A stretch of DNA of 49,724 nt from Candidatus Iainarchaeum sp. (lineage in GTDB: Archaea; Iainarchaeota; Iainarchaeia; Iainarchaeales; JAFCCJ01), in NCBI GenBank assembly GCA_017610305.1, contig JAFCCJ010000002.1, forward strand, positions 1 through 49,724. Reading direction: 5' to 3'. The notes under the pieces were generated by a model. It saw nothing but the letters and a program-made list of their open reading frames with translations. It ran no database searches and was not told the origin of the DNA. Positions 10,453 to 49,513 of this stretch are shown one piece after another. The position numbers and the translations under genes are program-made. Positions within the stretch are counted from its first letter, which is position 1; every line of letters begins with the position of its first letter.

Positions 10453-10527
10453 AGCCTCGAGAGGGATTTGAACCCTCGACCCCCTGCTTACGAGGCAGGT
10501 GCTCTAGCCAGGCTGAGCTACCGAGGC
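10453..10527 (-). tRNA. tRNA-Thr (anticodon CGU), no intron, no encoded CCA
   Basis: The reverse complement is GCCTCGGTAGCTCAGCCTGGCTAGAGCACCTGCCTCGTAAGCAGGGGGTCGAGGGTTCAAATCCCTCTCGAGGCT. It folds as a cloverleaf with a 7-bp acceptor stem, anticodon stem CCTGC/GCAGG, loop CTCGTAA and T-loop TTCAAAT. Confidence 0.9.
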
Positions 10528-16377: not shown

Positions 16378-16481
16378 GGACGGGTAGCCTAGTCTGGATA
16401 GGGCAACTGCCTCCTACCTTCTTTGTGATTAATGAGAAGGGTGTAAGCAGTAGGTCGGCGGTTCGAATCCGCCCCCGTCCG
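16378..16481 (+). tRNA. tRNA-Arg (anticodon CCU) with a 29-nt intron at the canonical 37/38 position (intron 16417-16445)
   Basis: Acceptor GGACGGG/CCCGTCC, D-arm GCCT..GGGC, anticodon stem ACTGC/GCAGT, loop CT-CCT-A|intron|A and T-arm GGCGG-TTCGAAT-CCGCC. The intron forms a CCTTCT/AGAAGG helix, and the BHB-like 3-nt bulges are TA|C and TA|A. Confidence 0.85.
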
Positions 16482-21515: not shown

Positions 21516-21809
21516 CTATATAAAATTATCTCTAACTATACTCTCATTCAGAAGCCTCTTGGCATGTTTGGCGACATTTTTTCTGGCTTTTTCCGAAAGC
21601 ATCTCAACATCATTTTTAGTCAAAGTGCTTTTTTGAGCTAATCTTTCAGTTTCCTTGAAATCTTCCTCAAGATAAAGTTCAACAGATTCTTTCAGGTTTT
21701 TCAGCGCGCTTTTTTTGGTTCTTCCTTGGGAAGCGACTCCCAATTCAGGGCAATGGGAAACAAACCATTTTCCCTCTTTTGTTATAACTGCTGAAAATTT
21801 CATTTCCAT
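21516..21809 (-). CDS. HicB-like (UPF0150) antitoxin-fold protein with a C-terminal helical extension
   Basis: MEMKFSAVITKEGKWFVSHCPELGVASQGRTKKSALKNLKESVELYLEE is the classic HicB N-domain pattern. Internal start chosen. Confidence 0.6.
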   Translation of the reverse strand: MEMKFSAVITKEGKWFVSHCPELGVASQGRTKKSALKNLKESVELYLEEDFKETERLAQKSTLTKNDVEMLSEKARKNVAKHAKRLLNESIVRDNFI

Positions 21810-21855
21810 TATTTCACCTGATAAATCTATTGCTTTACCACTATAAAAACATATA

Positions 21856-22170
21856 CTAGCAATAACTTGCGGCAATTTCCAGTTCATTTTTTTCGTCCTC
21901 CTTCCCAATTAATTTCCCCATAACTCGCCATACGTCTTCCACAAAATAGGAATCATTTTCCTCTTTCACCAATTCCCTTTCCAGCAGGCTGGCGAGCGGG
22001 CGGTAAATTTCCGCGGAATCCATGCCTGCCCTGTGCGCAATTGAGAATAATTTCAGTTTCCCATTTTCTGTTAAGCATTTCAGGATTTTCGCTTCCTCAA
22101 TCGTGATTTCCCCCTCTTCCGCCAGCCTGAAAAGCGCAGCGCTAACGATGTTTAACCTAAATTCACTCAT
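21856..22170 (-). CDS. Small winged-helix-like protein, unknown function
   Basis: Taken from the internal ATG (MSEFRLNIV...). EEAKILKCLTENGKLKLFSIAHRAGMDSAEIYRPLASLLERELV looks like MarR/wHTH. Confidence 0.45.
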   Translation of the reverse strand: MSEFRLNIVSAALFRLAEEGEITIEEAKILKCLTENGKLKLFSIAHRAGMDSAEIYRPLASLLERELVKEENDSYFVEDVWRVMGKLIGKEDEKNELEIAASYC

Positions 22171-22301
22171 GAAATTTTCCCCCTCAAAATTAAATGGACG
22201 TGTCCCCCTGTGAAGGGGGACACTGGGCAGGCTCACCACTTGGCCAAATGGTCTAGATGTTCCGCCTGATAGTATCCTGTTCCGGGCATTAATATAGCTG
22301 C

Positions 22302-22370
22302 GGTTGATAAGAAATAAACCAAATGGTTGATTTTAACCCAAAAGCGAGAAATCAACCAAAAAGTTGATTT
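22302..22370. promoter_or_regulatory. Cluster of GTTGAT-type repeats, including a perfect 8-bp inverted repeat, upstream of the paralogue array
   Basis: GGTTGAT at 22302-22308, GGTTGATTTT at 22325-22334, and AAATCAAC (22349-22356) / GTTGATTT (22363-22370) separated by 6 nt. Confidence 0.4.
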
Positions 22371-22402
22371 TTAAAGGATTTTGGTCCTTCTGTATATATT
22401 CT

Positions 22403-23230
22403 ATGGTGGGGACCATAATACTGCCTAAAATAGGGCAGCCGAAAACTACGCGCGATGCGGTAATTTCCATTCTCTCACAGGAATGGCCACTTTCTGCAAA
22501 ACAGATTTATAACAAGCTCCAGAGGGAGAACGGGTTTGCTGTTTCTTATCAGGCTGTGCATAAAATTTTGAAGGATTTAGAGAACGAAAACATAATCTGC
22601 AGGAATAATTTGGCATATTCAATAAACCCTGAATGGGTTGAACGCGTCGGTAATTTCGCGAAAATGATGCAGGAAAGTTTCGCATCCTTTTCCAATGGTT
22701 CGGACAGCAACAATTTCTCCCTTGATTCCATTTACAATCTGGATAGTTTCATAGTTGAAATGGCTGAAAAGATAATGTCCCCTGAAAGGCAAACCTTGTG
22801 CATATACTGGTGCCATTTTTGGATTCCCCTCTTCCAGAAGGAAACCTATAAGAGACTGAAGCGCATGATTGAGGCCAGCAATTCCTATGGAATAAGCAAA
22901 TCATCAACCATTTTGGACCAATGGTGCGAAAAATTCTGGACCGGTAACAAGGTCAGGATGAAATGCGGAATTGACCTCGATTCACCTGATTTCATAATTT
23001 ACGGGGATTTTGTTATTCAGGTCTATTATCCTAAAGAGATTGTAAAGGAACTTGACAAAATCTATTCCTCCTGCAGCAAAATCTCGGATTTTGACATGAG
23101 CTCAATGTTCGAGAATGTGTTCGAAAAAAAGACCAAAATCCCAATTACCATAAACAGGAATCCTGAACTGGCGGAACAGTTGAGGGGGAAAATGCTGGGA
23201 TATTTTAAGGGTGGGAAGAATGGCAAGTAG
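22403..23230 (+). CDS. Paralogue 1: wHTH plus uncharacterised ~200-aa C-terminal domain
   Basis: wHTH ISILSQEWPLSAKQIYNKLQRENGFAVSYQAVHKILKDLENENII. The ATG at 22403 gives an N-terminus colinear with the other three copies. Confidence 0.7.
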   Translation: MVGTIILPKIGQPKTTRDAVISILSQEWPLSAKQIYNKLQRENGFAVSYQAVHKILKDLENENIICRNNLAYSINPEWVERVGNFAKMMQESFASFSNGSDSNNFSLDSIYNLDSFIVEMAEKIMSPERQTLCIYWCHFWIPLFQKETYKRLKRMIEASNSYGISKSSTILDQWCEKFWTGNKVRMKCGIDLDSPDFIIYGDFVIQVYYPKEIVKELDKIYSSCSKISDFDMSSMFENVFEKKTKIPITINRNPELAEQLRGKMLGYFKGGKNGK

Positions 23231-24083
23231 TTTGAGTTTGCTGAAGTTGAATGTGAATAATTCCTCCACACAGGAGAAGATAGTATCAATTCTCAGTGAA
23301 CGGTGGCCCCTTACAGCTAAGGAAATCTACAATACTTTAATCAGGGAGTTCGGGATGGAAGTTTCATACCAAGCAGTTCATAAAATATTAACTGATTTGG
23401 AAGAAAACCGAGTTATAGAAAAAAGCGCAAAAAACTATGAATTGAGTGACCAATGGATTAAGAGGGGAAAGGGGTTCTTTACCGAAATCGACAAGAGATA
23501 TTCCGATTCCTTCGGAAAATACGAAATAGACCCTAATTTTGAGGGCACAATTACACTTGAATTCAAAGATTACAGTTTATTTTGCGTAACAATAGCAAGA
23601 ATCATGGCGAGCAAGGCGCTTGTCGGAAACGGTCCAAATATCGTTATTACGCTTATGAAATATGGGTGGTGGCCATTTAAATTCAAATTCAAGGATTTGG
23701 AGTTGCTAGCAACAATGACGAAGAATAACCCAAAAGCTTATGCAATCCTCACTAACGATACTCCTTTTGGACGCTGGATACTAAAACAGTATGTAAGGGT
23801 TGGAGGAATAGCTGCCCCTATTGGGACTGAAATAGGTTTGAAAGAGGATATGCTAATTCAGGGGGATTCTATTGCAGAAATAAAATTTTCAGATGAGTCA
23901 TTGAAAATAATCAAAGAATCTTATGGTGAGCTACATGGATTGGACGATTTGTACAGGAAATTTGGCCTGAGAAAACAGCCACCCGAAATGCACGCAACAG
24001 TTAAAATAACAAAAAATCCGGCACTATCTGAATTGCTGAGGAAGCAGATAATTGATAGGTATTTTAAGGGGGTGATAAAATGA
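23220..24083 (+). CDS. Paralogue 2: wHTH plus uncharacterised C-terminal domain
   Basis: VSILSERWPLTAKEIYNTLIREFGMEVSYQAVHKILTDLEENRVIEK. Start is ATG 23220 (or GTG 23211) and overlaps the end of paralogue 1. Confidence 0.7.
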   Translation: MASSLSLLKLNVNNSSTQEKIVSILSERWPLTAKEIYNTLIREFGMEVSYQAVHKILTDLEENRVIEKSAKNYELSDQWIKRGKGFFTEIDKRYSDSFGKYEIDPNFEGTITLEFKDYSLFCVTIARIMASKALVGNGPNIVITLMKYGWWPFKFKFKDLELLATMTKNNPKAYAILTNDTPFGRWILKQYVRVGGIAAPIGTEIGLKEDMLIQGDSIAEIKFSDESLKIIKESYGELHGLDDLYRKFGLRKQPPEMHATVKITKNPALSELLRKQIIDRYFKGVIK

Positions 24084-24931
24084 CACTCAACATCACAATC
24101 CCACAACTGAATTCAAATTCCAAATCAACTAAAGATATGGTAATTTCGTTATTGAGCCAGAAATGGCCTTTGAATGCGATGGAGATTTACAACAGCGTGC
24201 AGAGGGAGTTTGGTGCGGGGGTTTCCTATCAGGCAGTGCACAAGATTTTGAATGAACTGCAGCAGGGAAAGATACTTGAAAAGAACGGGATGAGTTATCA
24301 GATAAGCAAGGGCTGGATAGAGCAGGTTAAGAAATTCGGCAGCGATTTGGATGAGAAATATACTAATGGGAAAACGATTGATTTTGAGAATTTTGAGAGC
24401 ATGCATATTACAATGGATAAATTCCTGGATTTCTGCAGGTTCATGATTTATGAGTTTTATATGAAGTTTCCAAACCCTGAGAAAAAGGATTGCATATGTT
24501 CGTGGGACCATGTTTATTCCCCAATAGGAATGAGTGAAAAAGACCACGAAATTCTGAGGGACTTGTTTTCCACAGCCCTGCACTATGCCCCCTGCCCAAA
24601 TAACACTTTTTTGGATAACTGGTTTGCGGAATACCTCAATGATTTGGGGAAAATATGCGTAAATGACGTTCAGTTCTCAGTCGGTAACGATACCTTTGTT
24701 CAGGGGGACTTTGTCATGGTGGCATATTTTAGTTCTGAATTCAAGAAAAATGTTGATGAGATTTATAAAAAGGTAAAATCCGTTGAGGAATTCAAGGTTT
24801 CAAACTATTTTGATATCATTAACAAAAAGGCTGAAATCAATATTTTGATTGTGAAAAACTCTTCTTTGGCTGGGCAGTTGAGGAAAGAGGGTAAAATGTT
24901 GTATGAATGCAAAGGGGAGGCTGGAAAATGA
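24080..24931 (+). CDS. Paralogue 3: wHTH plus uncharacterised C-terminal domain
   Basis: ISLLSQKWPLNAMEIYNSVQREFGAGVSYQAVHKILNELQQGKILEK. ATGA overlap with paralogue 2. Confidence 0.75.
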   Translation: MTLNITIPQLNSNSKSTKDMVISLLSQKWPLNAMEIYNSVQREFGAGVSYQAVHKILNELQQGKILEKNGMSYQISKGWIEQVKKFGSDLDEKYTNGKTIDFENFESMHITMDKFLDFCRFMIYEFYMKFPNPEKKDCICSWDHVYSPIGMSEKDHEILRDLFSTALHYAPCPNNTFLDNWFAEYLNDLGKICVNDVQFSVGNDTFVQGDFVMVAYFSSEFKKNVDEIYKKVKSVEEFKVSNYFDIINKKAEINILIVKNSSLAGQLRKEGKMLYECKGEAGK

Positions 24932-25761
24932 CCATAAACATAACTATGCCAGAATTGAATTCAACATCGACAAAGGACAAAGTAATTTCAATCCTTTCAA
25001 GGAAATGGCCAATGAGCACCAAGGAGATTTATAATGCGCTGCAACGGGAGTACGGCGTTGAAATATCTTATCAGGCAGTCCATAAGATAATAAGCCAGCT
25101 TCAAAATGACGACGTGATGATTAAGAATGGCAGAGACTTGGAGATAAGCAGGGAATGGATTTCTAAAGTGAAGAAGTTTAGCAATTCCCTAGATTCTAAA
25201 TATTCCAATGGGGAAATTGATTACGAAAATTTCAATGGTTCGCTTCATCTCAAATTAAACAATTTTGTTGAGCTGGGGAGATTCCTCATAAATGACTATT
25301 TCACAAAATTCCCGAATGAGGATAATAAAGATTGCGTGTGCTTCTGGAAGCACCATTATCCGGCCACCGGCGTTAGTGATACTGAGCATGAGAACATGAA
25401 AAAGATATTTGCGGAGCATGTCCATTACGGGATATCTAAATGCGACAATTTTTTAGACGTGTATTTTGGCAATTATTTGACGGGATTGGGCAAGAGAAAT
25501 ATCTCTGGCGCGGAGTTCAGTACCGGAATTGATACTTTCATAATGGGGGACTTTATCTGCCAGGTTTATTTCGAGCCTGGCTTTTACAAGGAAGTTGAGA
25601 AACTATATGAAAATACGCAATCGCAGGATGGCATGGACTTTTCCAAGCTTCTGGAACTGACCTCAAAAAAGACCGAGATTAATGTTTTGATTACTAAAAA
25701 TGCCTCTTTGGCAGATATGATGAGGGGGGAGGCGAAAGGAATATTTGAAAAATCCAAATAA
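24928..25761 (+). CDS. Paralogue 4: wHTH plus uncharacterised C-terminal domain
   Basis: ISILSRKWPMSTKEIYNALQREYGVEISYQAVHKIISQLQNDDVMIK. ATGA overlap with paralogue 3 when started at MTINITMPELN. Confidence 0.75.
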   Translation: MTINITMPELNSTSTKDKVISILSRKWPMSTKEIYNALQREYGVEISYQAVHKIISQLQNDDVMIKNGRDLEISREWISKVKKFSNSLDSKYSNGEIDYENFNGSLHLKLNNFVELGRFLINDYFTKFPNEDNKDCVCFWKHHYPATGVSDTEHENMKKIFAEHVHYGISKCDNFLDVYFGNYLTGLGKRNISGAEFSTGIDTFIMGDFICQVYFEPGFYKEVEKLYENTQSQDGMDFSKLLELTSKKTEINVLITKNASLADMMRGEAKGIFEKSK

Positions 25762-25762
25762 A

Positions 25763-26341
25763 TCATTTTTCAAAAAATGATGCAATCTCGAATTTTTCAA
25801 TCGCTACATACGCAATATCAAATGCCATAAACGCAAAAAAGAAAATCCATCCGAAATAGTTGAATAAAGCGAATAGAAAAACTGCCAATTTCATCGCGAA
25901 ACGGTATTGGAAAAAATAATTGGCTACTTTGTTTATTTTTTTGTTCTTTTCAACAAAATCATGCCCTATTTCATCAGATATTGCTGCCAGGGAGATTACT
26001 ATTAATGGAATCCATAAAAATTGTACAAATTCACTGAAAAACAAAATCACTAAAATAGTCAGCAAACCTATTTGATGGCCAATGTTATTGATTTTTCCTT
26101 TTAGAACAGCTGCGATTAGTATTGCGGCTAAAATAGAAGCTGCTGCGGGGCTTGATGCCATAGAGATTGCCCATAGAATTCCGACAAGGGGAGCTAAGAC
26201 TATAGCAACCCATTCTTTCGAAATCTTCTTATCAAAGATATCGTCGATTAATTTCACGCCAACACCAAACAGAATAAAGGAAATAATAAAATATATTGCA
26301 AGAATATGCTCTTCTGAAAAAATAAGATCTTCTAACAACAA
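25763..26341 (-). CDS. Six-TM membrane protein with two Asp-rich loop motifs (DDIFD, DEIGHD), function unknown
   Basis: 192 aa and last gene of the minus-strand cluster. Its stop is 1 nt from the convergent stop of paralogue 4. Confidence 0.6.
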   Translation of the reverse strand: MLLEDLIFSEEHILAIYFIISFILFGVGVKLIDDIFDKKISKEWVAIVLAPLVGILWAISMASSPAAASILAAILIAAVLKGKINNIGHQIGLLTILVILFFSEFVQFLWIPLIVISLAAISDEIGHDFVEKNKKINKVANYFFQYRFAMKLAVFLFALFNYFGWIFFFAFMAFDIAYVAIEKFEIASFFEK

Positions 26342-26377
26342 AAATAATCACCCGGATAATTTCTCTAAAATAAAAAC

Positions 26378-27457
26378 TCAATCAATAAAATTTTTGATTT
26401 CTCCATTTTTAATTCTATGATAATACTCTTTTCTCTTTGCAGGGTTTGAAAATGTTTTAGCTTTTAATAATCTTTCTTTTATTTCACTAATTAGCGGTCC
26501 ACATAAATTTTTATAATGCCCTAATGGATTATCAAAATCAGTTTTTATTGCTTTAGATAATAAATCTCCACTTCTAAGTGCAAAACTGATACCTTCTCCG
26601 CTACTTGAGCTTATAAGACCAGCTGCCTCCCCAACCAAAATTACATTCTTTTTTCCAAATTCAATTTCTTTTAAAGACCTAGGCCTAGCCCCAACAGCCG
26701 CTTCTCTTCGAATAAAAGTCTTATCAATATTTATTTTGGTTTTTCTTTTGAATTTTTCTTTGAATAAATTCATTTTTTCTTTTGAATTTTCATAGCAAAT
26801 CGATGTTGCTAATAACATTTCTTCATCTTTTGGGATGACCCACGAATAAAAATCTGTAATTTCTTTGTCATAAATAAAGTAAATATCATTAATTTTATCT
26901 GATTTTTTAACTATATCCTGTATTACTAAATATCGCCTTATCGGAACAGAAGATATTTTTCTTCTTATCGTTGAAGCTCCACCATCAGCACCAATTAAAT
27001 AATTACATTTAACTACTTTAGTCTTATCCCCATTTCGCAGAACGACATATATAATATTTTTAATAGAATCATAATCAATTAGAGTTGTACTAGGTAGAAG
27101 GTCAGCACTATTTGGAACTAGTGAAAGAAGCCAGTGATCAAATTCCCTTCTTTTAATATTTAAAAAATCTCTATTTAATCTTAACTCCAGATTATTGTCC
27201 CAGTCATCAATAACAAATTGCGGTCTTTCTGGTTTTGAAAAAACTTTTGATGGAATATCTAAATTTCTAAGAAACTGCAGTGTTCTTTCAACAAGAATTC
27301 CGCCACAAGGTTTTTCTCGGGGGAAATTATCTCTATCTATTATTAAAGTACTATATTTATTTGAAATATTTTTTCCTAGAATACATCCTGCGGGCCCCGC
27401 CCCTACAATAATCACATCATAACTTTCTTGAATCGAATCAAAATCTATATGGGTCAT
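26378..27457 (-). CDS. FAD-dependent geranylgeranyl-reductase-family oxidoreductase
   Basis: YDVIIVGAGPAGCILGKNIS...LIIDRDNFPREKPCGGIL (dinucleotide fold plus the PCGG motif typical of GGR/BchP/ChlP), then later GEAAGLISSSSGEGI. Confidence 0.75.
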   Translation of the reverse strand: MTHIDFDSIQESYDVIIVGAGPAGCILGKNISNKYSTLIIDRDNFPREKPCGGILVERTLQFLRNLDIPSKVFSKPERPQFVIDDWDNNLELRLNRDFLNIKRREFDHWLLSLVPNSADLLPSTTLIDYDSIKNIIYVVLRNGDKTKVVKCNYLIGADGGASTIRRKISSVPIRRYLVIQDIVKKSDKINDIYFIYDKEITDFYSWVIPKDEEMLLATSICYENSKEKMNLFKEKFKRKTKINIDKTFIRREAAVGARPRSLKEIEFGKKNVILVGEAAGLISSSSGEGISFALRSGDLLSKAIKTDFDNPLGHYKNLCGPLISEIKERLLKAKTFSNPAKRKEYYHRIKNGEIKNFID

Positions 27458-27495
27458 AGTACATCACCAATTAAATATTTCAACCGATAAAAATA

Positions 27496-28083
27496 TCATT
27501 TCAAATCTGTTTCCCACTTTGCCCATAATTCACTTTTTATCTTGGCAATTTTTTTCGGGTTAGCATAAATGAATTCACAATATGGATCCCCCTGAGCAAT
27601 ACAATGGGTCTCAATGGCTTCATTGGGTTGATTAAATAAGACATTAAATGACCCAGCATATAATCCTGCAGTTATGATGTCAACAGGGAATTTACTTGCC
27701 CCATACATGTGCACATACCTCATTGCAACCGGGGAATTATCAAATCTAGTGATTACTTTTTTTTCTTCCATGCTAAATTTGGTTATACTTGCTTTACCAT
27801 AGCCTGCCAAAGTAACTATCTCCGTATATAGTTTTGCCAATTCTCTACCGGCAGATCTTGTATTTCTTCTCAATTCTTTCGAATATTCCTCCGTTCCTTT
27901 TTTCGCATTTTTATAAATTAGATCGTGAGCTTTAGAGTAACCAAAATCATCTATTAAGTTATGAATAAGCGAGACCGAATAATCTGCGGGATTCAAAATA
28001 ACTGGAATATTATATATATTAATTTTGCCCTCTTCCAATTTTAAGGCATTGGACATTAACAGTTTTGCAGCAAATCTAAACAT
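27496..28083 (-). CDS. V4R (4-vinyl reductase) domain protein
   Basis: C-terminal hallmark ETHCIAQGDPYCEFIY. It is colinear over its full length with the second V4R protein at 32601-33164. It overlaps the UbiA gene's 3' end by 28 nt; an alternative start at 28056 would form a TAATG junction. Confidence 0.65.
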   Translation of the reverse strand: MFRFAAKLLMSNALKLEEGKINIYNIPVILNPADYSVSLIHNLIDDFGYSKAHDLIYKNAKKGTEEYSKELRRNTRSAGRELAKLYTEIVTLAGYGKASITKFSMEEKKVITRFDNSPVAMRYVHMYGASKFPVDIITAGLYAGSFNVLFNQPNEAIETHCIAQGDPYCEFIYANPKKIAKIKSELWAKWETDLK

Positions 28084-28949
28084 TTTATACTCACCTCATA
28101 TAAATAGGCAAATAAAATTAAGAATTCTATTAATGCCAAGGACATTGTCAACCATTTGAAAAAAGAAAACGCATTTTTTGAAGTTATCTCTTTGTAAAAT
28201 TTTTTAAAACAATATAAAAGAGGGATTAATACGATGAATAATATTGCATAAATAAAGGATATCTTGCCATTCAAAATTAAAAATAATAACGACAGAAACG
28301 AAATAAAATAAAGTAAGACTGCTGCAAAAAAGGATTTCTTTAATCCCAATATAACAACTAACGTTTTTGAATTCATTTCTAAATCAGCTTCATAATCTTC
28401 GAAATTTTTTGAAAATAATGCAGCTAAACCAAATAAAAATATAATTAAAAATTGCGGCCAAGGTATTAATTCAAAACTGTTATATACTCCCCAACCAATA
28501 ATTAATGGAAAAAGAGTATAAGTAATAGCAATAATAAAATCAGAAACTATGGGGAATCGTTTAAGTGTGGGAGGTACAGAATAAAAAATTGAAAATAGGG
28601 TCATTATAATAAAAAAAACAAAGTATTCGAATCTAAAAAAAGAATAAATAATCAAATTAGAAACTAAAAAAAGAACCGCTGAATAAATAAATGCTTTTCC
28701 CGTAGAAATTTTCCCTGAAGGTATTGGTCGATAAGATTTACTAATTCTATCTGATTCTACATCAAAAATAGCATTTAGAGTGTTAAAGCCGCCAATAAAA
28801 GCAAAAAAAGCAAAAAAGCCAATTATTATATAAAAGGTAGGAAAGAATTCAGACCCCATAACTAAACCAACAGTATACGCCAAAAAAATCATAACTACGG
28901 TTATGGGGTAAGGTAATTCTAGATAAGGTCTAATTTTATCCATTAGCAT
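28056..28949 (-). CDS. UbiA-superfamily membrane prenyltransferase (DGGGP-synthase-like; substrate not assignable by eye)
   Basis: First Asp-rich motif is NAIFDVESDRISKSYRPIPSGKIS. Second motif is FEDYEADLEMNSKTLVVILG. About 8-9 TM segments, 297 aa. Confidence 0.8.
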   Translation of the reverse strand: MLMDKIRPYLELPYPITVVMIFLAYTVGLVMGSEFFPTFYIIIGFFAFFAFIGGFNTLNAIFDVESDRISKSYRPIPSGKISTGKAFIYSAVLFLVSNLIIYSFFRFEYFVFFIIMTLFSIFYSVPPTLKRFPIVSDFIIAITYTLFPLIIGWGVYNSFELIPWPQFLIIFLFGLAALFSKNFEDYEADLEMNSKTLVVILGLKKSFFAAVLLYFISFLSLLFLILNGKISFIYAILFIVLIPLLYCFKKFYKEITSKNAFSFFKWLTMSLALIEFLILFAYLYEVSIKCLDLLQNC

Positions 28950-28967
28950 TAAAACGCCCCTAAAAAA

Positions 28968-29732
28968 TTAAATCTTATATTCTTCTTCTTTGATTAGATG
29001 TATGCCGTTTGAACCAATTTCGTAAAGTATAGATTTTTTTTCATGCGAAGTATATCTCATTTTTCGGATAATCATACTCCTATTTTCAACACTTCCAACT
29101 CCCAAATAATAAAGGGCAATAACACCATCACAAATAAATTCTGAAATATTGTCTGCCGAAAGAAAATTGCTCTTTTCAGGAAGTTCAGTAGTGAGCATAA
29201 CTGTCGCATCAAATAATCGGATTTTGTTCATTAAATGGTATAAGAGGGATTTTGCAACAACCTTTTCAGTTCGGGGGATTGGGGAAACTGATTCAGCAAC
29301 CTGCACCATCGAGAATGCTGTGTCCTCGCGCATTCCGGAAACTAAAAGGGAATCTGTGAATGTGGTCAGGGAATCAAGAACAATTCTTTTCGGGGTGAAT
29401 GCGGTGTATAAATCGTAAATTTTTTCGAGGGCGTTATCTGACTGGACAACATCAAAATATTCTATTTTGAGGAGGTTTTTCTGCTCCAAACCCTCAATAT
29501 CCCAGCCAAAATTGGTGCCAGCCTTAATCAGTTCCTTTCGCTTCTGCTCTGTTGAAATGTACAAACCTTTCTCGCCGAAGAGTTTTGCGCCATTAATCAG
29601 GTACTGCATGCATAGTGTGCTTTTACCAGTTCCAGCCCCGCCTGAAACAAGGACAACGTTGTTTTTCGGGATTCCCCCCTCAAGGGCCTTATCCAAACCC
29701 GGGATTCCAGTTTTTACCTTTTCAACTGCCAT
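28968..29732 (-). CDS. Single-domain KaiC/RadA-like (RecA-superfamily, COG0467-like) ATPase
   Basis: GIPGLDKALEGGIPKNNVVLVSGGAGTGKSTLCMQY (Walker A), Walker B-like IVLDSLT, 254 aa. Confidence 0.8.
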   Translation of the reverse strand: MAVEKVKTGIPGLDKALEGGIPKNNVVLVSGGAGTGKSTLCMQYLINGAKLFGEKGLYISTEQKRKELIKAGTNFGWDIEGLEQKNLLKIEYFDVVQSDNALEKIYDLYTAFTPKRIVLDSLTTFTDSLLVSGMREDTAFSMVQVAESVSPIPRTEKVVAKSLLYHLMNKIRLFDATVMLTTELPEKSNFLSADNISEFICDGVIALYYLGVGSVENRSMIIRKMRYTSHEKKSILYEIGSNGIHLIKEEEYKI

Positions 29733-32600: not shown

Positions 32601-33164
32601 TTATTCAACCTTCAACTGCCGCCGGGGGTTCTTTTTGTTGAAATCAAAGTCATGGACCTCTTTTATTATGAATTCGCATTCCTTTTCGTTCATTGCGGCG
32701 CATTTTGTTTCAAGGCAGTCGAGGTCGGTTTTCAGTAAATTGGAGAAAATGCCAGCGAAAATCCCGCGCAGGAAATGGTCAACAGGCTCCTTTGACTTTC
32801 CATGGAGGGCGGTTGCCATTGGGGAACTGGAAACCACAATAATTGCGCGTTTTTTCTCGGGGCTGAAATCAATTATCTTTATCCCGCCCCATCCGGAAGC
32901 GGAAAAGAAATTTCGCATAAATGTTAATGCCCTGTCTCCCTGCATTCCAAAATCAAGGTTAAACTGCTTTGAAAGGTTTTTTCGCATTGAGTCCTTTACA
33001 GAATAATAAAGGTTGATGTTGGTTTCCTTGTCCCCTTTTGCGACAATTCCAATAAGAAGTTCTGTTGGGACAATCACAAAGGGGAGGTTCAGGAGATAGA
33101 AATTGTTGTGCTTGTACTTTAATCCATTTGTAAAAATAAACTTGTCAAAAAAGCTGTTAAGCAT
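32601..33164 (-). CDS. V4R domain protein (second copy)
   Basis: C-terminal ETKCAAMNEKECEFIIK. The N-terminus aligns with the 27496-28083 product. Confidence 0.6.
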   Translation of the reverse strand: MLNSFFDKFIFTNGLKYKHNNFYLLNLPFVIVPTELLIGIVAKGDKETNINLYYSVKDSMRKNLSKQFNLDFGMQGDRALTFMRNFFSASGWGGIKIIDFSPEKKRAIIVVSSSPMATALHGKSKEPVDHFLRGIFAGIFSNLLKTDLDCLETKCAAMNEKECEFIIKEVHDFDFNKKNPRRQLKVE

Positions 33165-49407: not shown

Positions 49408-49513
49408 GGGCCTGTGGTCTAGTGGTTATGACATCACGTTGACAAGTCTATAAGAAGTAATTTTTATTGACGCAGATTCGTGGGGATCGGCGGTTCGATT
49501 CCGCCCAGGCCCA
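49408..49513 (+). tRNA. tRNA-Val (anticodon GAC) with a 33-nt intron at 37/38 (intron 49445-49477)
   Basis: GGGCCTGTGGTCTAGTGGTTATGAC is a typical archaeal tRNA-Val 5' half. Anticodon stem TCACG/CGTGG, loop TT-GAC-A|intron|T, T-arm GGCGG-TTCGATT-CCGCC and discriminator A. The BHB-like fold is described in the findings. Confidence 0.8.

What the first reader, a model, noticed from the sequence alone, without database searches (positions are those of the whole stretch)
22403..25761. Four tandem, translationally coupled paralogues of an unrecognised wHTH plus ~200-aa domain family
Four consecutive same-strand genes of about 275-290 aa share one architecture.
- **N-terminus:** a short I-T-I-P-x-L-N-like leader, then a winged helix with a near-invariant core: [IV]S[IL]LSxxWP[LM][ST]Ax[EQ]IYN...[VI]SYQAVHKI[LI]..L.
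- **C-terminus:** about 200 aa with conserved islands that I cannot assign to any characterised ligand-binding family. The islands are FPNxxxKDC[IV]CxWxHxY in copies 3/4, LCIYWCHFW in copy 1, GDF[VI]xx[AV]Y[FY], and a terminal [IV]xI[TV]KN[PSA]xL[AS]xxLR.
- **Coupling:** junctions are ATGA overlaps at 24080-24083 and 24928-24931, and an 11-nt overlap at 23220-23230, implying co-translation and possibly hetero-oligomers.
- **Context:** the copies are strongly diverged (an old expansion, not a recent duplication). The array sits between a repeat-rich upstream region and a convergent AT-rich prenyl-lipid-type cluster.
Basis: partly seen in the sequence, partly recalled or inferred. Interest (0 to 1): 0.72.

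Follow-up and report, generated by a model that had tools for sequence, protein, structure and literature searches.

The report
DPANN regulator gene array with operator
Four back-to-back genes encode related DNA-binding regulators of a large, unnamed family found only in tiny DPANN archaea; they share one DNA-reading head, carry a sensor-like domain folded like that of TrmB-family regulators, and sit behind a conserved palindromic DNA site that they probably bind to control themselves.

Summary
Four overlapping, same-strand genes (22403-25761) are 25-46% identical paralogues with no Pfam or NCBIfam family.

What they are:
- An unannotated family seen only in DPANN archaea, with 2,333 clusters at 50% identity.
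- It usually occurs in tandem arrays of 2-8 genes, built from three old subfamilies. The window's order is C-B-A-A.
- The N-terminus is a Fur/BlaI-like winged helix. Its recognition helix, SYQAVHK, is 97-99% invariant at Y, Q, H and K.
- The C-terminal domain (AlphaFold pLDDT 92) has a phospholipase-D-like fold without the HKD motif. The closest solved structure is TrmBL2, but profile comparison finds no sequence homology.

New findings:
- A 16-bp palindrome, TCAACY-N4-RGTTGA (22352-22367, with a weaker copy at 22315-22330), abuts the TATA box of the first gene.
- The same site lies upstream of array-head genes across DPANN: 33 of 100 head genes against 1 of 68 inner genes, p about 1e-34.
- A KaiC-like ATPase gene lies within 10 kb in 21 of 34 well-flanked loci, often paired with a V4R gene.

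Best reading: an autoregulated, leaderless operon of one-component regulators that share one operator and differ in their sensor domains. It is a new variant of a known kind (TrmB-like architecture), and moderately interesting.

The parts
22315..22330 (.). Upstream operator-like palindrome TAAACCAAATGGTTGA, one mismatch to TCAACY-N4-RGTTGA, on the side of the divergent 127-aa wHTH gene.
   Evidence: In the close relative L003 this copy stays with the 127-aa gene after a 5.7-kb insertion.
22352..22367 (.). Perfect 16-bp palindrome TCAACCAAAAAGTTGA, the predicted operator of the array, at the BRE position.
   Evidence: The same motif lies upstream of array-head family genes in many DPANN loci. 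It occurs 44 times in 1.18 Mb against 1.3 expected.
22368..22377 (+). TATA-like box TTTTTAAAGG directly after the palindrome, about 31 nt before the g1 ATG. This geometry fits a leaderless transcript.
   Evidence: Sequence. The same palindrome-then-TATA arrangement recurs in other loci. BRE and TATA positions are taken from PMC4158304. No transcript data; inferred.
22403..23230 (+). g1, 275 aa, subfamily C: wHTH, linker helix and PLD-like domain. First gene of the operon.
   Evidence: It is 88% identical to L003 copy 1.
23220..24083 (+). g2, 287 aa, subfamily B. It overlaps g1 by 11 nt, with an SD-like GGGTGGG at 23209-23215.
   Evidence: It is 90% identical to L003 copy 2.
24080..24931 (+). 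g3, 283 aa, subfamily A. ATGA overlap with g2, with an SD-like GGGGGTGA at 24068-24075. This is the protein that was modelled.
   Evidence: It has no orthologue in L003.
24928..25761 (+). g4, 277 aa, subfamily A. ATGA overlap with g3, with an SD-like GGGGAGG at 24914-24920.
   Evidence: Against L003 copy 3 the wHTH windows are 73-97% identical but the C-terminal domain only about 50%.
25762..25781 (.). AT-rich inverted repeat with T-runs on both strands at the 1-nt convergent junction. Possibly a bidirectional terminator.
   Evidence: Sequence. Inference only.
28968..29732 (-). Single-domain KaiC-like ATPase with Walker A and Walker B motifs intact. It is the gene most consistently linked to the family.
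   Evidence: Homologues lie within 10 kb in 21 of 34 well-flanked loci, and within 200 bp of a family gene in 16 loci.
27496..28083 (-). V4R-domain protein, a recurrent partner of the KaiC-like gene.
   Evidence: The family's wHTH is fused to V4R in L027 and L059.
25763..26341 (-). 192-aa membrane protein of unknown function. It recurs next to the KaiC-like gene.
   Evidence: Homologues in 17 other loci. Gene maps.
26378..27457 (-). Geranylgeranyl-reductase-family FAD protein, a looser neighbour.
   Evidence: Homologues in 7 other loci.
28056..28949 (-). UbiA-family prenyltransferase, a looser neighbour.
   Evidence: Homologues in 11 other loci.
21856..22239 (-). Divergent 127-aa TrmB/MarR-type wHTH gene that shares the operator-bearing intergenic region.
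   Evidence: Pfam TrmB PF01978, E 3.5e-6. Homologues near arrays in 5 other loci.

Best explanation
The four genes form one operon. It probably starts with a leaderless transcript just before g1, and the three downstream genes are translated through Shine-Dalgarno sites buried in the overlapping upstream gene ends.

They encode paralogous one-component transcription regulators of an unnamed family found only in DPANN archaea. Each protein has three parts:
- a Fur/BlaI-like winged helix whose recognition helix (SYQAVHK) is almost invariant in all paralogues and all lineages;
- a helix placed where the TrmB coiled-coil dimerisation helix lies;
- an alpha/beta domain with the phospholipase-D-like fold used as effector domain by TrmB-family regulators, lacking the HKD catalytic motif.

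I propose the following mechanism.
1. They bind, as homo- or heterodimers, the palindrome TCAACY-N4-RGTTGA.
2. That site occupies the BRE position directly upstream of the operon's TATA box, so they control their own promoter. The most likely mode is repression by blocking TFB/TBP.
3. They also control other promoters that carry the same site.
4. The PLD-like domain is the sensing and pairing module. Paralogues with the same DNA-reading head and different C-terminal domains would bring several signals to one operator.
5. The array belongs to a conserved neighbourhood with a KaiC-like ATPase and V4R/FIST sensor proteins, which may feed into it.

**Shown:** the gene structure, family size and distribution, fold, motif conservation and position, and neighbourhood statistics.
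**Inferred:** DNA binding to this motif, repression, ligand sensing, heteromers and the KaiC link.
For: **Gene structure.**
- Overlaps and SD-like runs are confirmed.

**Family size and distribution.**
- 2,333 representatives at E<=1e-3 and 557 at E<=1e-30.
- 75 genome loci, nearly all labelled as DPANN lineages or unclassified archaeal MAGs.
- Arrays of 2-8 genes are common.
- Three subfamilies recur within arrays.

**Winged helix.**
- Y50, Q51, H54 and K55 are 97-99% conserved in 150 members.

**Fold.**
- The full-length model has pLDDT 82 and the C-domain model 91.8.
- Foldseek's top hit is TrmBL2: E 1e-8 full length, 1e-4 for the domain, TM 0.47.
- The top 17 domain hits all have the PLD fold, including Nuc at TM 0.50/0.58.
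- TrmBL2 itself matches Pfam TrmB, Regulator_TrmB and, weakly, PLDc_2.

**Operator.**
- AACY-N4-RGTT lies within -130..+10 of 33/100 array-head genes against 1/68 inner genes. Background is 1.5% per 140 bp, binomial p 1e-34.
- A position-weight scan gives about 25% of heads against 1% of random windows.
- TCAAC-N6-GTTGA occurs 44 times against 1.3 expected.
- The geometry is fixed: palindrome, then TATA, then about 25-30 nt to the ATG.
- In a blind metagenome scan for the motif, 7 of 125 sites lay 24-67 nt upstream of a family gene, and 17 of 120 loci held a family gene.

**Sensor role.**
- The same wHTH is fused to V4R or FIST in place of the PLD-like domain.

**Pairing.**
- Proteins exist with one wHTH and 2-3 PLD-like domains. 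In the three printed (P0013, P0014, P0016) the C-terminal extra domain carries the subfamily-C-like W.H.W.P motif, by eye.

**KaiC link.**
- 21/34 loci within 10 kb, 19 of them within 5 kb, and 16 loci with the genes immediately adjacent.
Against: - No binding, expression or ligand data exist.
- Only a quarter to a third of array heads carry a recognisable site. The 8-gene array in L001 has only degenerate versions.
- Most motif sites found blindly in metagenomes are not next to a family gene. Some are likely chance hits in unrelated organisms, so another factor could own the motif.
- In the window the motif occurs only in the g1 / 127-aa-gene intergenic region. It does not occur before the KaiC/V4R/UbiA/GGR genes.
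- The divergent 127-aa wHTH protein is an alternative binder.
- The conserved polar residues of the C-domain (H144, D179, D204, D210, K/R259, N260) are the same in all three subfamilies. That fits one common ligand or activity better than diversified sensing.
- TM-scores to PLD-fold structures are moderate (0.45-0.58).
Confidence: 0.6

Rival explanations
1. TrmBL2-like chromatin protein. The paralogues would co-assemble into hetero-oligomers that coat DNA with little sequence preference and shape the nucleoid or silence genes globally, as TrmBL2 does in Thermococcales.
For: - TrmBL2 is the best structural match over the full length, and its size and architecture are the same.
- The recognition helix is invariant in all paralogues.
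- Arrays would give high dosage.
- Coupled translation suits stoichiometric complexes.
Against: - A specific palindrome is conserved at a fixed position in the family's own promoters. That is typical of a site-specific regulator.
- There is no sequence homology to TrmBL2.
- The wHTH is of a different type, Fur/BlaI-like.
Confidence: 0.1
2. Dedicated regulators of the neighbouring prenyl-lipid genes. The PLD-like domain would sense a phospholipid or polyprenyl-phosphate intermediate and the array would tune membrane-lipid synthesis or remodelling.
For: - GGR and UbiA genes recur near arrays, in 7 and 11 other loci.
- PLD-fold domains bind phosphodiester lipids: MITD1, phosphatidylserine synthase and PLD3/4 are among the hits.
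- One member carries a weak polyprenyl-synthetase-like extension, E 3e-4, below the cut-off.
Against: - There is no operator before the lipid genes in the window.
- The lipid genes lie on a low-GC segment that is replaced in the close relative L003, while g1 and g2 stay 88-90% identical.
- The KaiC link is much stronger than the GGR or UbiA link.
- Other motif sites precede tRNA synthetases, NUDIX, ABC ATPase, methyltransferase and glycosyltransferase genes.
Confidence: 0.12
3. The palindrome belongs to another factor, for example the divergent 127-aa TrmB-type wHTH protein or a general DPANN promoter factor. The four paralogues would have different, unknown targets or partners.
For: - Most blind motif hits are not next to family genes.
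- A composite element with a third half-site precedes diverse housekeeping genes.
- The 127-aa gene shares the intergenic region and recurs in 5 other loci.
Against: - The motif accompanies array heads in many loci that lack the 127-aa gene.
- It is absent from inner genes.
- An invariant recognition helix across phyla matches an invariant operator.
Confidence: 0.13
4. A DNA-tethered PLD-type enzyme or defence module. The C-terminal domain would be a divergent active phosphodiesterase or nuclease, and the variable arrays would reflect an arms race.
For: - Nuclease members of the PLD fold are among the hits: Nuc, Zucchini and PLD3/4.
- His, Lys/Arg, Asn and Asp residues are conserved in all subfamilies.
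- The C-domain of g4 diverges fast compared with L003.
- Toxin-antitoxin and Fic genes lie nearby in L003.
Against: - The HKD motif is absent in 150 of 150 members.
- There are no PADLOC hits.
- The family is absent from the phage, plasmid and viral-contig collections.
- Its steady association with housekeeping-type neighbours speaks against a defence island.
Confidence: 0.05

Closest known systems
TrmBL2 / TrmB family of archaeal regulators (Pfam PF01978 + PF11495)
   Same: - The architecture and size match: an N-terminal winged helix, a helix where the TrmB dimerisation coiled coil lies, and a PLD-fold C-terminal domain, about 265-290 aa as in TrmBL2, which lacks the sugar-binding barrel.
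- TrmBL2 is the best Foldseek match.
- TrmB also uses palindromic operators at the BRE/TATA box (PMC4158304).
   Different: - No sequence relationship is detectable. Pfam TrmB hits 2 of 150 members and Regulator_TrmB none. hhalign probability is below 1% against TrmBL2 and against a 26-sequence TrmBL2-family profile.
- The recognition helix and operator differ (SYQAVHK; TCAACY-N4-RGTTGA).
- The family is confined to DPANN, forms translationally coupled arrays of 2-8 genes, and is linked to KaiC/V4R rather than to sugar transporters.
Other archaeal wHTH + PLD-like regulators (FilR1 middle domain PF08350, TbsP PF19138, DUF7436)
   Same: These C-terminal domains are sequence relatives of the TrmBL2 domain, so they are presumably the same kind of module attached to a DNA-binding head.
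   Different: No member of the present family hits any of these models.
Phospholipase D superfamily (Nuc, Zucchini, PLD3/4, PPK C-domains, MITD1 C-domain)
   Same: - The fold of the C-terminal domain matches at TM 0.45-0.58.
- PLD domains work in pairs, and this family has natural proteins with 2-3 tandem copies.
   Different: - There is no HxK(x)4D motif in any of 150 members.
- There is no Pfam PLDc hit.
- The domain is attached to a DNA-binding head.
Fur / BlaI-MecI / PadR-type winged helices
   Same: These are the weak best Pfam matches for residues 15-75: FUR in 21 of 150 members, Penicillinase_R in 11. PadR, BlaI and Fur structures appear among the Foldseek hits.
   Different: All hits are below the curated cut-offs. 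The metal-binding or sensor domains of those families are absent.
KaiC-like ATPase signalling modules of archaea (Makarova, Galperin & Koonin 2017, mBio 8:e01959-17; cited in PMC5847659; not readable here)
   Same: A single-domain KaiC-like ATPase sits next to putative input (V4R, FIST) and output (wHTH) proteins.
   Different: Whether this particular wHTH family was noted there could not be checked, because the paper is not held. No interaction has been shown.

Membership tests
TrmB family | N-terminal TrmB-type wHTH (Pfam PF01978) | tested here: not met
   None of the four window proteins hits it at E<=1. Only 2 of 150 family members do. TrmBL2 scores 5e-21.
TrmB family | C-terminal Regulator_TrmB domain (PF11495), or detectable profile homology to TrmBL2 | tested here: not met
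   No PF11495 hit in 150 members. hhalign of A3 against TrmBL2 gives probability 0.2%, and against the TrmBL2-family alignment A5 0.4%.
TrmB family | Architecture and fold: wHTH, then a helix at the coiled-coil position, then a PLD-fold effector domain | tested here: met
   AF2 models. Foldseek top hit TrmBL2: E 1e-8 full length, 1e-4 and TM 0.47 for the domain.
TrmB family | Sugar-binding C-terminal subdomain (G320/E326 in TrmB) | tested here: not met
   The proteins end after the PLD-like domain at 275-287 aa, as TrmBL2 does (table in PMC4158304).
TrmB family | Binds a palindromic operator at or near BRE/TATA | not testable with these tools
   A conserved palindrome at the BRE position is shown. 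Binding is inferred.
Phospholipase D superfamily | PLD fold | tested here: met
   The top 17 Foldseek hits of the C-domain model all have the PLD fold, TM 0.37-0.58.
Phospholipase D superfamily | HKD catalytic motif HxK(x)4D | tested here: not met
   0 of 150 members.
One-component transcription regulators | DNA-binding domain and a putative sensor domain in one polypeptide, usually autoregulated | tested here: inconclusive
   The two-domain architecture is shown. The same wHTH is fused to the known sensor domains V4R and FIST. A conserved site sits in the family's own promoter. Ligand and binding are untested.
KaiC-centred signalling module | Conserved neighbourhood with a KaiC-like ATPase | tested here: met
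   21 of 34 loci with at least 5 kb on both flanks, 19 of them within 5 kb and only 2 at 5-10 kb. 16 loci have the genes adjacent.
KaiC-centred signalling module | Physical or functional interaction with the ATPase | not testable with these tools
   No multimer prediction or experiment was available.
Anti-phage defence systems (PADLOC) | Match to a known defence protein model | tested here: not met
   No hit except one weak winged-helix match, E 0.005.

The most novel reading that the evidence does not exclude
This family is the main global transcription-regulator system of DPANN archaea.
- Hetero-oligomers of paralogues carry an identical DNA-reading head but different PLD-like (or V4R/FIST) sensor modules.
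- They converge on one shared operator, TCAACY-N4-RGTTGA, sometimes with a third half-site, placed on the BRE of many promoters.
- Those promoters include the family's own and those of housekeeping genes.
- The assembly integrates several signals and is wired to a KaiC-like ATPase.
- Array length and fast turnover of the distal sensor domains would then set how many signals each lineage can read.
Probability: 0.22. Interest if true: 0.8.

Novelty: new variant of a known kind. Interest (0 to 1): 0.6.

Why it matters
Very little is known about gene regulation in DPANN archaea, which are mostly uncultured, have tiny genomes and hold much 'dark matter'.

This work turns a block of hypothetical genes into a defined, testable system with five parts:
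- a family signature;
- a predicted fold;
- a predicted 16-bp operator with fixed promoter geometry;
- a set of candidate target genes;
- a recurrent partner, the KaiC-like ATPase with V4R/FIST sensors.

If the prediction holds, the motif would allow regulon reconstruction across hundreds of DPANN genomes. The family would also be an example of many sensor domains sharing one DNA-reading head. Finally, it shows that the wHTH plus PLD-fold design of TrmB regulators either recurs or persists beyond detectable sequence similarity.

Tried and rejected
- **Curated libraries.** Pfam, NCBIfam and PADLOC scans of the four proteins and of 150 family members gave no C-terminal domain hit.
- **PDB sequence and profile searches.** Nothing found.
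- **Profile-profile comparison with TrmBL2.** Comparison with TrmBL2, and with a TrmBL2-family alignment built for the purpose, was negative. I do not file the family under TrmB.
- **CxCxWxH as a metal site.** Rejected: the Cys pair occurs in few members. Only the His is well conserved, at 80%.
- **Recent duplication.** Rejected: the copies fall in three old clades.
- **L003 copy 3 as a g3/g4 chimera.** I first read the blastn result this way. Windowed protein identity shows it is the g4 orthologue, with a conserved head and a diverged C-domain.
- **Mobile or viral origin.** No relatives in the phage, plasmid or IMG/VR collections.
- **Source names.** None beyond 'hypothetical protein'.
- **Makarova et al. 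2017 KaiC paper.** It could not be read.
- **3D mapping of conserved residues.** Model coordinates are not exposed, so the conserved residues could not be mapped in three dimensions.
- **Genome scan with the 150-sequence alignment.** It failed because no stretch was conserved enough. The 15-sequence alignment worked.

Full report
**1. Observation**

The window holds four consecutive + strand ORFs of 275-287 aa. Homologue alignments fix the starts and ends:

| Gene | Coordinates |
|---|---|
| g1 | 22403-23230 |
| g2 | 23220-24083 |
| g3 | 24080-24931 |
| g4 | 24928-25761 |

- The junctions are an 11-nt overlap and two ATGA overlaps.
- Each internal start has a GGTG/GGAGG run 4-8 nt upstream. 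g1 has none.
- Identity to g1 is 25-33%. g3 and g4 are 46% identical.
- No Pfam or NCBIfam model reaches its cut-off. There are only weak winged-helix hits (FUR, MCM_C, HTH_12) at residues 15-75.

**2. The family**

- A word-seeded search with g3 found only 11 relatives, two of them labelled hypothetical proteins of Candidatus Diapherotrites.
- An exhaustive HMM search with a 15-sequence profile found 2,333 cluster representatives at E<=1e-3 and 557 at E<=1e-30.
- A scan of species-representative genomes returned 75 loci. Nearly all are labelled as DPANN lineages (Iainarchaeum/Diapherotrites, Micrarchaeota, Aenigmatarchaeota, Nanoarchaeota, Woesearchaeota) or as unclassified archaeal MAGs. A few bins carry other labels.
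- No source gives a functional name.
- Nothing was found in the phage, plasmid or viral-contig collections.
- The closest relative of the window is L003/L021, a Candidatus Iainarchaeum MAG with about 87% nucleotide identity in shared genes.

**3. Arrays are the rule**

An HMM survey of all ORFs in the loci shows tandem same-strand arrays:
- eight copies plus a wHTH-only gene in L001;
- six in L017;
- five in L009, L013, L015 and L016;
- many arrays of two to four.

About 35 loci hold a single copy.

Clustering gives three large clades. A contains g3 and g4, B contains g2 and C contains g1.
- The window reads C-B-A-A and L003 reads C-B-A.
- L015 reads A-C-B-B-A, and L001 reads A-D-D-A-B-D-B-C.
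- Single-copy loci are most often clade C.

The expansion is therefore ancient and structured.

**4. Structure**

- The AlphaFold2 model of g3 has pLDDT 82.
- It shows a winged helix at residues 17-75, a long helix at 77-94, a disordered linker, and an alpha/beta domain at 107-282.
- Modelled alone, the C-domain reaches pLDDT 91.8 and pTM 0.86.
- For the full model, the four best Foldseek hits against the PDB are TrmBL2 (5bpd/5bpi, E 1e-8, aligned over the whole length).
- For the C-domain, the 17 best hits all have the phospholipase-D fold. They are TrmBL2 (TM 0.47), MITD1, polyphosphate kinase, Nuc (TM 0.50/0.58), Zucchini, PLD3/4, phosphatidylserine synthase and vaccinia F13.
- I checked that TrmBL2 itself matches Pfam TrmB, Regulator_TrmB and, weakly, PLDc_2, FilR1_middle, TbsP_N and DUF7436.

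At the sequence level there is no link:
- no C-domain Pfam hit in 150 members;
- no PDB profile hit;
- hhalign probability below 1% against TrmBL2 and against a 26-sequence TrmBL2-family profile;
- the HKD motif absent in 150 of 150 members.

Conserved C-domain residues are H144, Y169, T176, D179, D204, G209-D210, K/R259, N260 and R/K268. They are shared by all three clades. The CxC pair is not conserved.

**5. The DNA-reading head and its probable operator**

- L25, P30-L31, Y50-Q51-A52, H54-K55 and W79 are 91-99% conserved in 150 members. All paralogues therefore carry essentially the same recognition helix.
- Upstream of g1 lie two copies of a palindrome. TCAACCAAAAAGTTGA at 22352-22367 is perfect. 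TAAACCAAATGGTTGA at 22315-22330 has one mismatch.
- The perfect copy is followed at once by TTTTTAAAGG. The g1 ATG lies about 31 nt after the centre of that box. This is the geometry of a leaderless archaeal promoter with the palindrome on the BRE (positions from PMC4158304).

The same palindrome recurs in front of array-head family genes in many loci:
- AACY-N4-RGTT occurs within -130..+10 of 33/100 head genes but 1/68 inner genes. Background is 1.5%, p 1e-34.
- A weight-matrix scan gives about 25% of heads against 1% of random windows.
- The strict form occurs 44 times in 1.18 Mb against 1.3 expected. The best of 29 same-composition control palindromes occurs 7 times.

As a reverse test, I scanned metagenome contigs for the extended motif alone.
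- 7 of 125 sites sit 24-67 nt upstream of a family gene, and 17 of 120 loci contain one.
- Family clusters are about one in a million of all cluster representatives.

Other sites, often with a third half-site TCAACC 4-6 nt away, precede unrelated genes. These include MetRS, a class-II aminoacyl-tRNA synthetase, NUDIX, an ABC ATPase, an FtsJ-like methyltransferase and a GT9 glycosyltransferase.

In the window there are no further good sites.

**6. Neighbourhood**

Convergent with the array lie five genes:
- a 192-aa membrane protein;
- a geranylgeranyl-reductase-family protein;
- a V4R protein;
- a UbiA prenyltransferase;
- a single-domain KaiC-like ATPase with intact Walker motifs.

Among 34 loci with at least 5 kb on both flanks:
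- 21 have a close homologue of this KaiC-like gene within 10 kb;
- 19 of those are within 5 kb and only 2 at 5-10 kb;
- 14 have a V4R gene.

In 16 loci the ATPase gene directly adjoins a family gene. Gene maps show a recurring KaiC-V4R or KaiC-membrane-protein pair. GGR, UbiA and runs of roughly 400-450-aa genes are looser companions, and the one such gene that was scanned (in L003) is a FIST protein.

**7. Architectural variants**

The signature wHTH also occurs in other combinations:
- fused to V4R (L027 and L059, both directly upstream of the KaiC-like gene);
- fused to FIST_N/FIST_C (L035);
- followed by the PLD-like domain plus a HAD hydrolase (Pfam-confirmed in L055; L071 and L073 look similar but were not scanned);
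- alone.

Several proteins carry one wHTH and two or three PLD-like domains. In the three printed, the C-terminal extra domain looks clade-C-like by eye. These fusions support two ideas:
- the C-terminal position is a swappable sensor slot;
- PLD-like domains of different clades pair, as PLD domains generally do.

**8. Evolution in the window**

- Against L003, g1 is 88% identical and g2 is 90% identical.
- g4's winged helix is 73-97% identical in sliding windows, but its C-domain only about 50%. g3 has no counterpart.
- Identity between the two genomes resumes inside the KaiC-like gene, near 29119.
- The segment between is low in GC and differs in gene content.
- I infer a replaced segment whose left breakpoint lies at the domain boundary of g4.
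- L003 also carries a 5.7-kb insert between the two palindromes, with Fic and RHH-PIN genes.

**9. Interpretation**

The best-supported reading is an autoregulated operon of paralogous one-component regulators that share one operator and differ in their C-terminal modules. Its design resembles TrmB/TrmBL2, but it is not a demonstrable member of that family.

- Repression is favoured because the site sits on the BRE, as for TrmB at malE. Activation cannot be excluded.
- Binding, ligand, heteromer formation and the KaiC connection are all inferences.
- The rivals are a chromatin protein, a lipid-pathway regulator, a palindrome owned by another factor, and a tethered PLD enzyme or defence module. 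They are weighed in their own section.

**10. Verdict**

The feature is real. The family is undescribed in the libraries available here. Its kind (winged helix plus PLD-fold regulator) is known. Three aspects appear to be new:
- the confinement to DPANN archaea and the array organisation;
- the invariant head with a conserved operator;
- the KaiC/V4R linkage.

Noticed in passing
window 16378-16481 (+) and 49408-49513 (+): Rfam calls two tRNAs of 104-106 nt that ARAGORN missed. They are probably intron-containing archaeal tRNAs. ARAGORN found only tRNA-Thr at 10453-10527.
   Followed up: no
window about 24250-29119: This is a low-GC segment (27-33% at 26-29 kb, against about 42% elsewhere). It holds the membrane-protein, GGR, V4R and UbiA genes and is not conserved in the 87%-identical relative L003, which has FIST and other genes there. 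It looks like a replaced segment, with breakpoints in g4 (at the domain boundary) and in the KaiC-like gene.
   Followed up: partly
L003 574-6268, against window 22335-22348: The relative carries a 5.7-kb insert (Fic, RHH plus PIN, many small ORFs) exactly between the two operator palindromes, which are 37 bp apart in the window.
   Followed up: partly
L001 15253 and 15658; L043 6452; about 30 metagenome sites, e.g. L175 5534/9506/11479 and L148 166/2892: A composite element recurs: the palindrome, then 4-6 nt, then a third half-site TCAACC(G/A)(A/C)AGG, about 55-70 nt before start codons of diverse genes. It may be a wider DPANN promoter element or a three-half-site operator.
   Followed up: partly
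L027 10822-11709; L059 3715-4623; L035 318-1853; L055 10007-11620; proteins P0013, P0014, P0016: Domain-swap variants of the family exist: wHTH+V4R, wHTH+FIST, wHTH+PLD-like+HAD, and one wHTH with 2-3 PLD-like domains.
   Followed up: yes
window 25762-25781: An AT-rich inverted repeat with T-runs on both strands sits at the 1-nt gap between the convergent stop codons of g4 and the membrane-protein gene. It may be a shared terminator.
   Followed up: no
window 21516-21908 (-) and 21856-22239 (-): Directly upstream and divergent from the array lie a DUF7387 protein and a 127-aa TrmB/MarR-type winged-helix protein. The latter recurs near arrays in 5 other loci and shares the operator-bearing intergenic region.
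   Followed up: partly
window about 32601-33164 (-): A second V4R-like gene in the window, detected as a phmmer match to the first.
   Followed up: no
L028, L063, L018, L075, L012 (between family genes and the membrane-protein/KaiC pair): Runs of three to five genes of about 390-450 aa recur. Their counterpart in L003 is a FIST-domain protein, so these may be arrays of FIST sensors.
   Followed up: no
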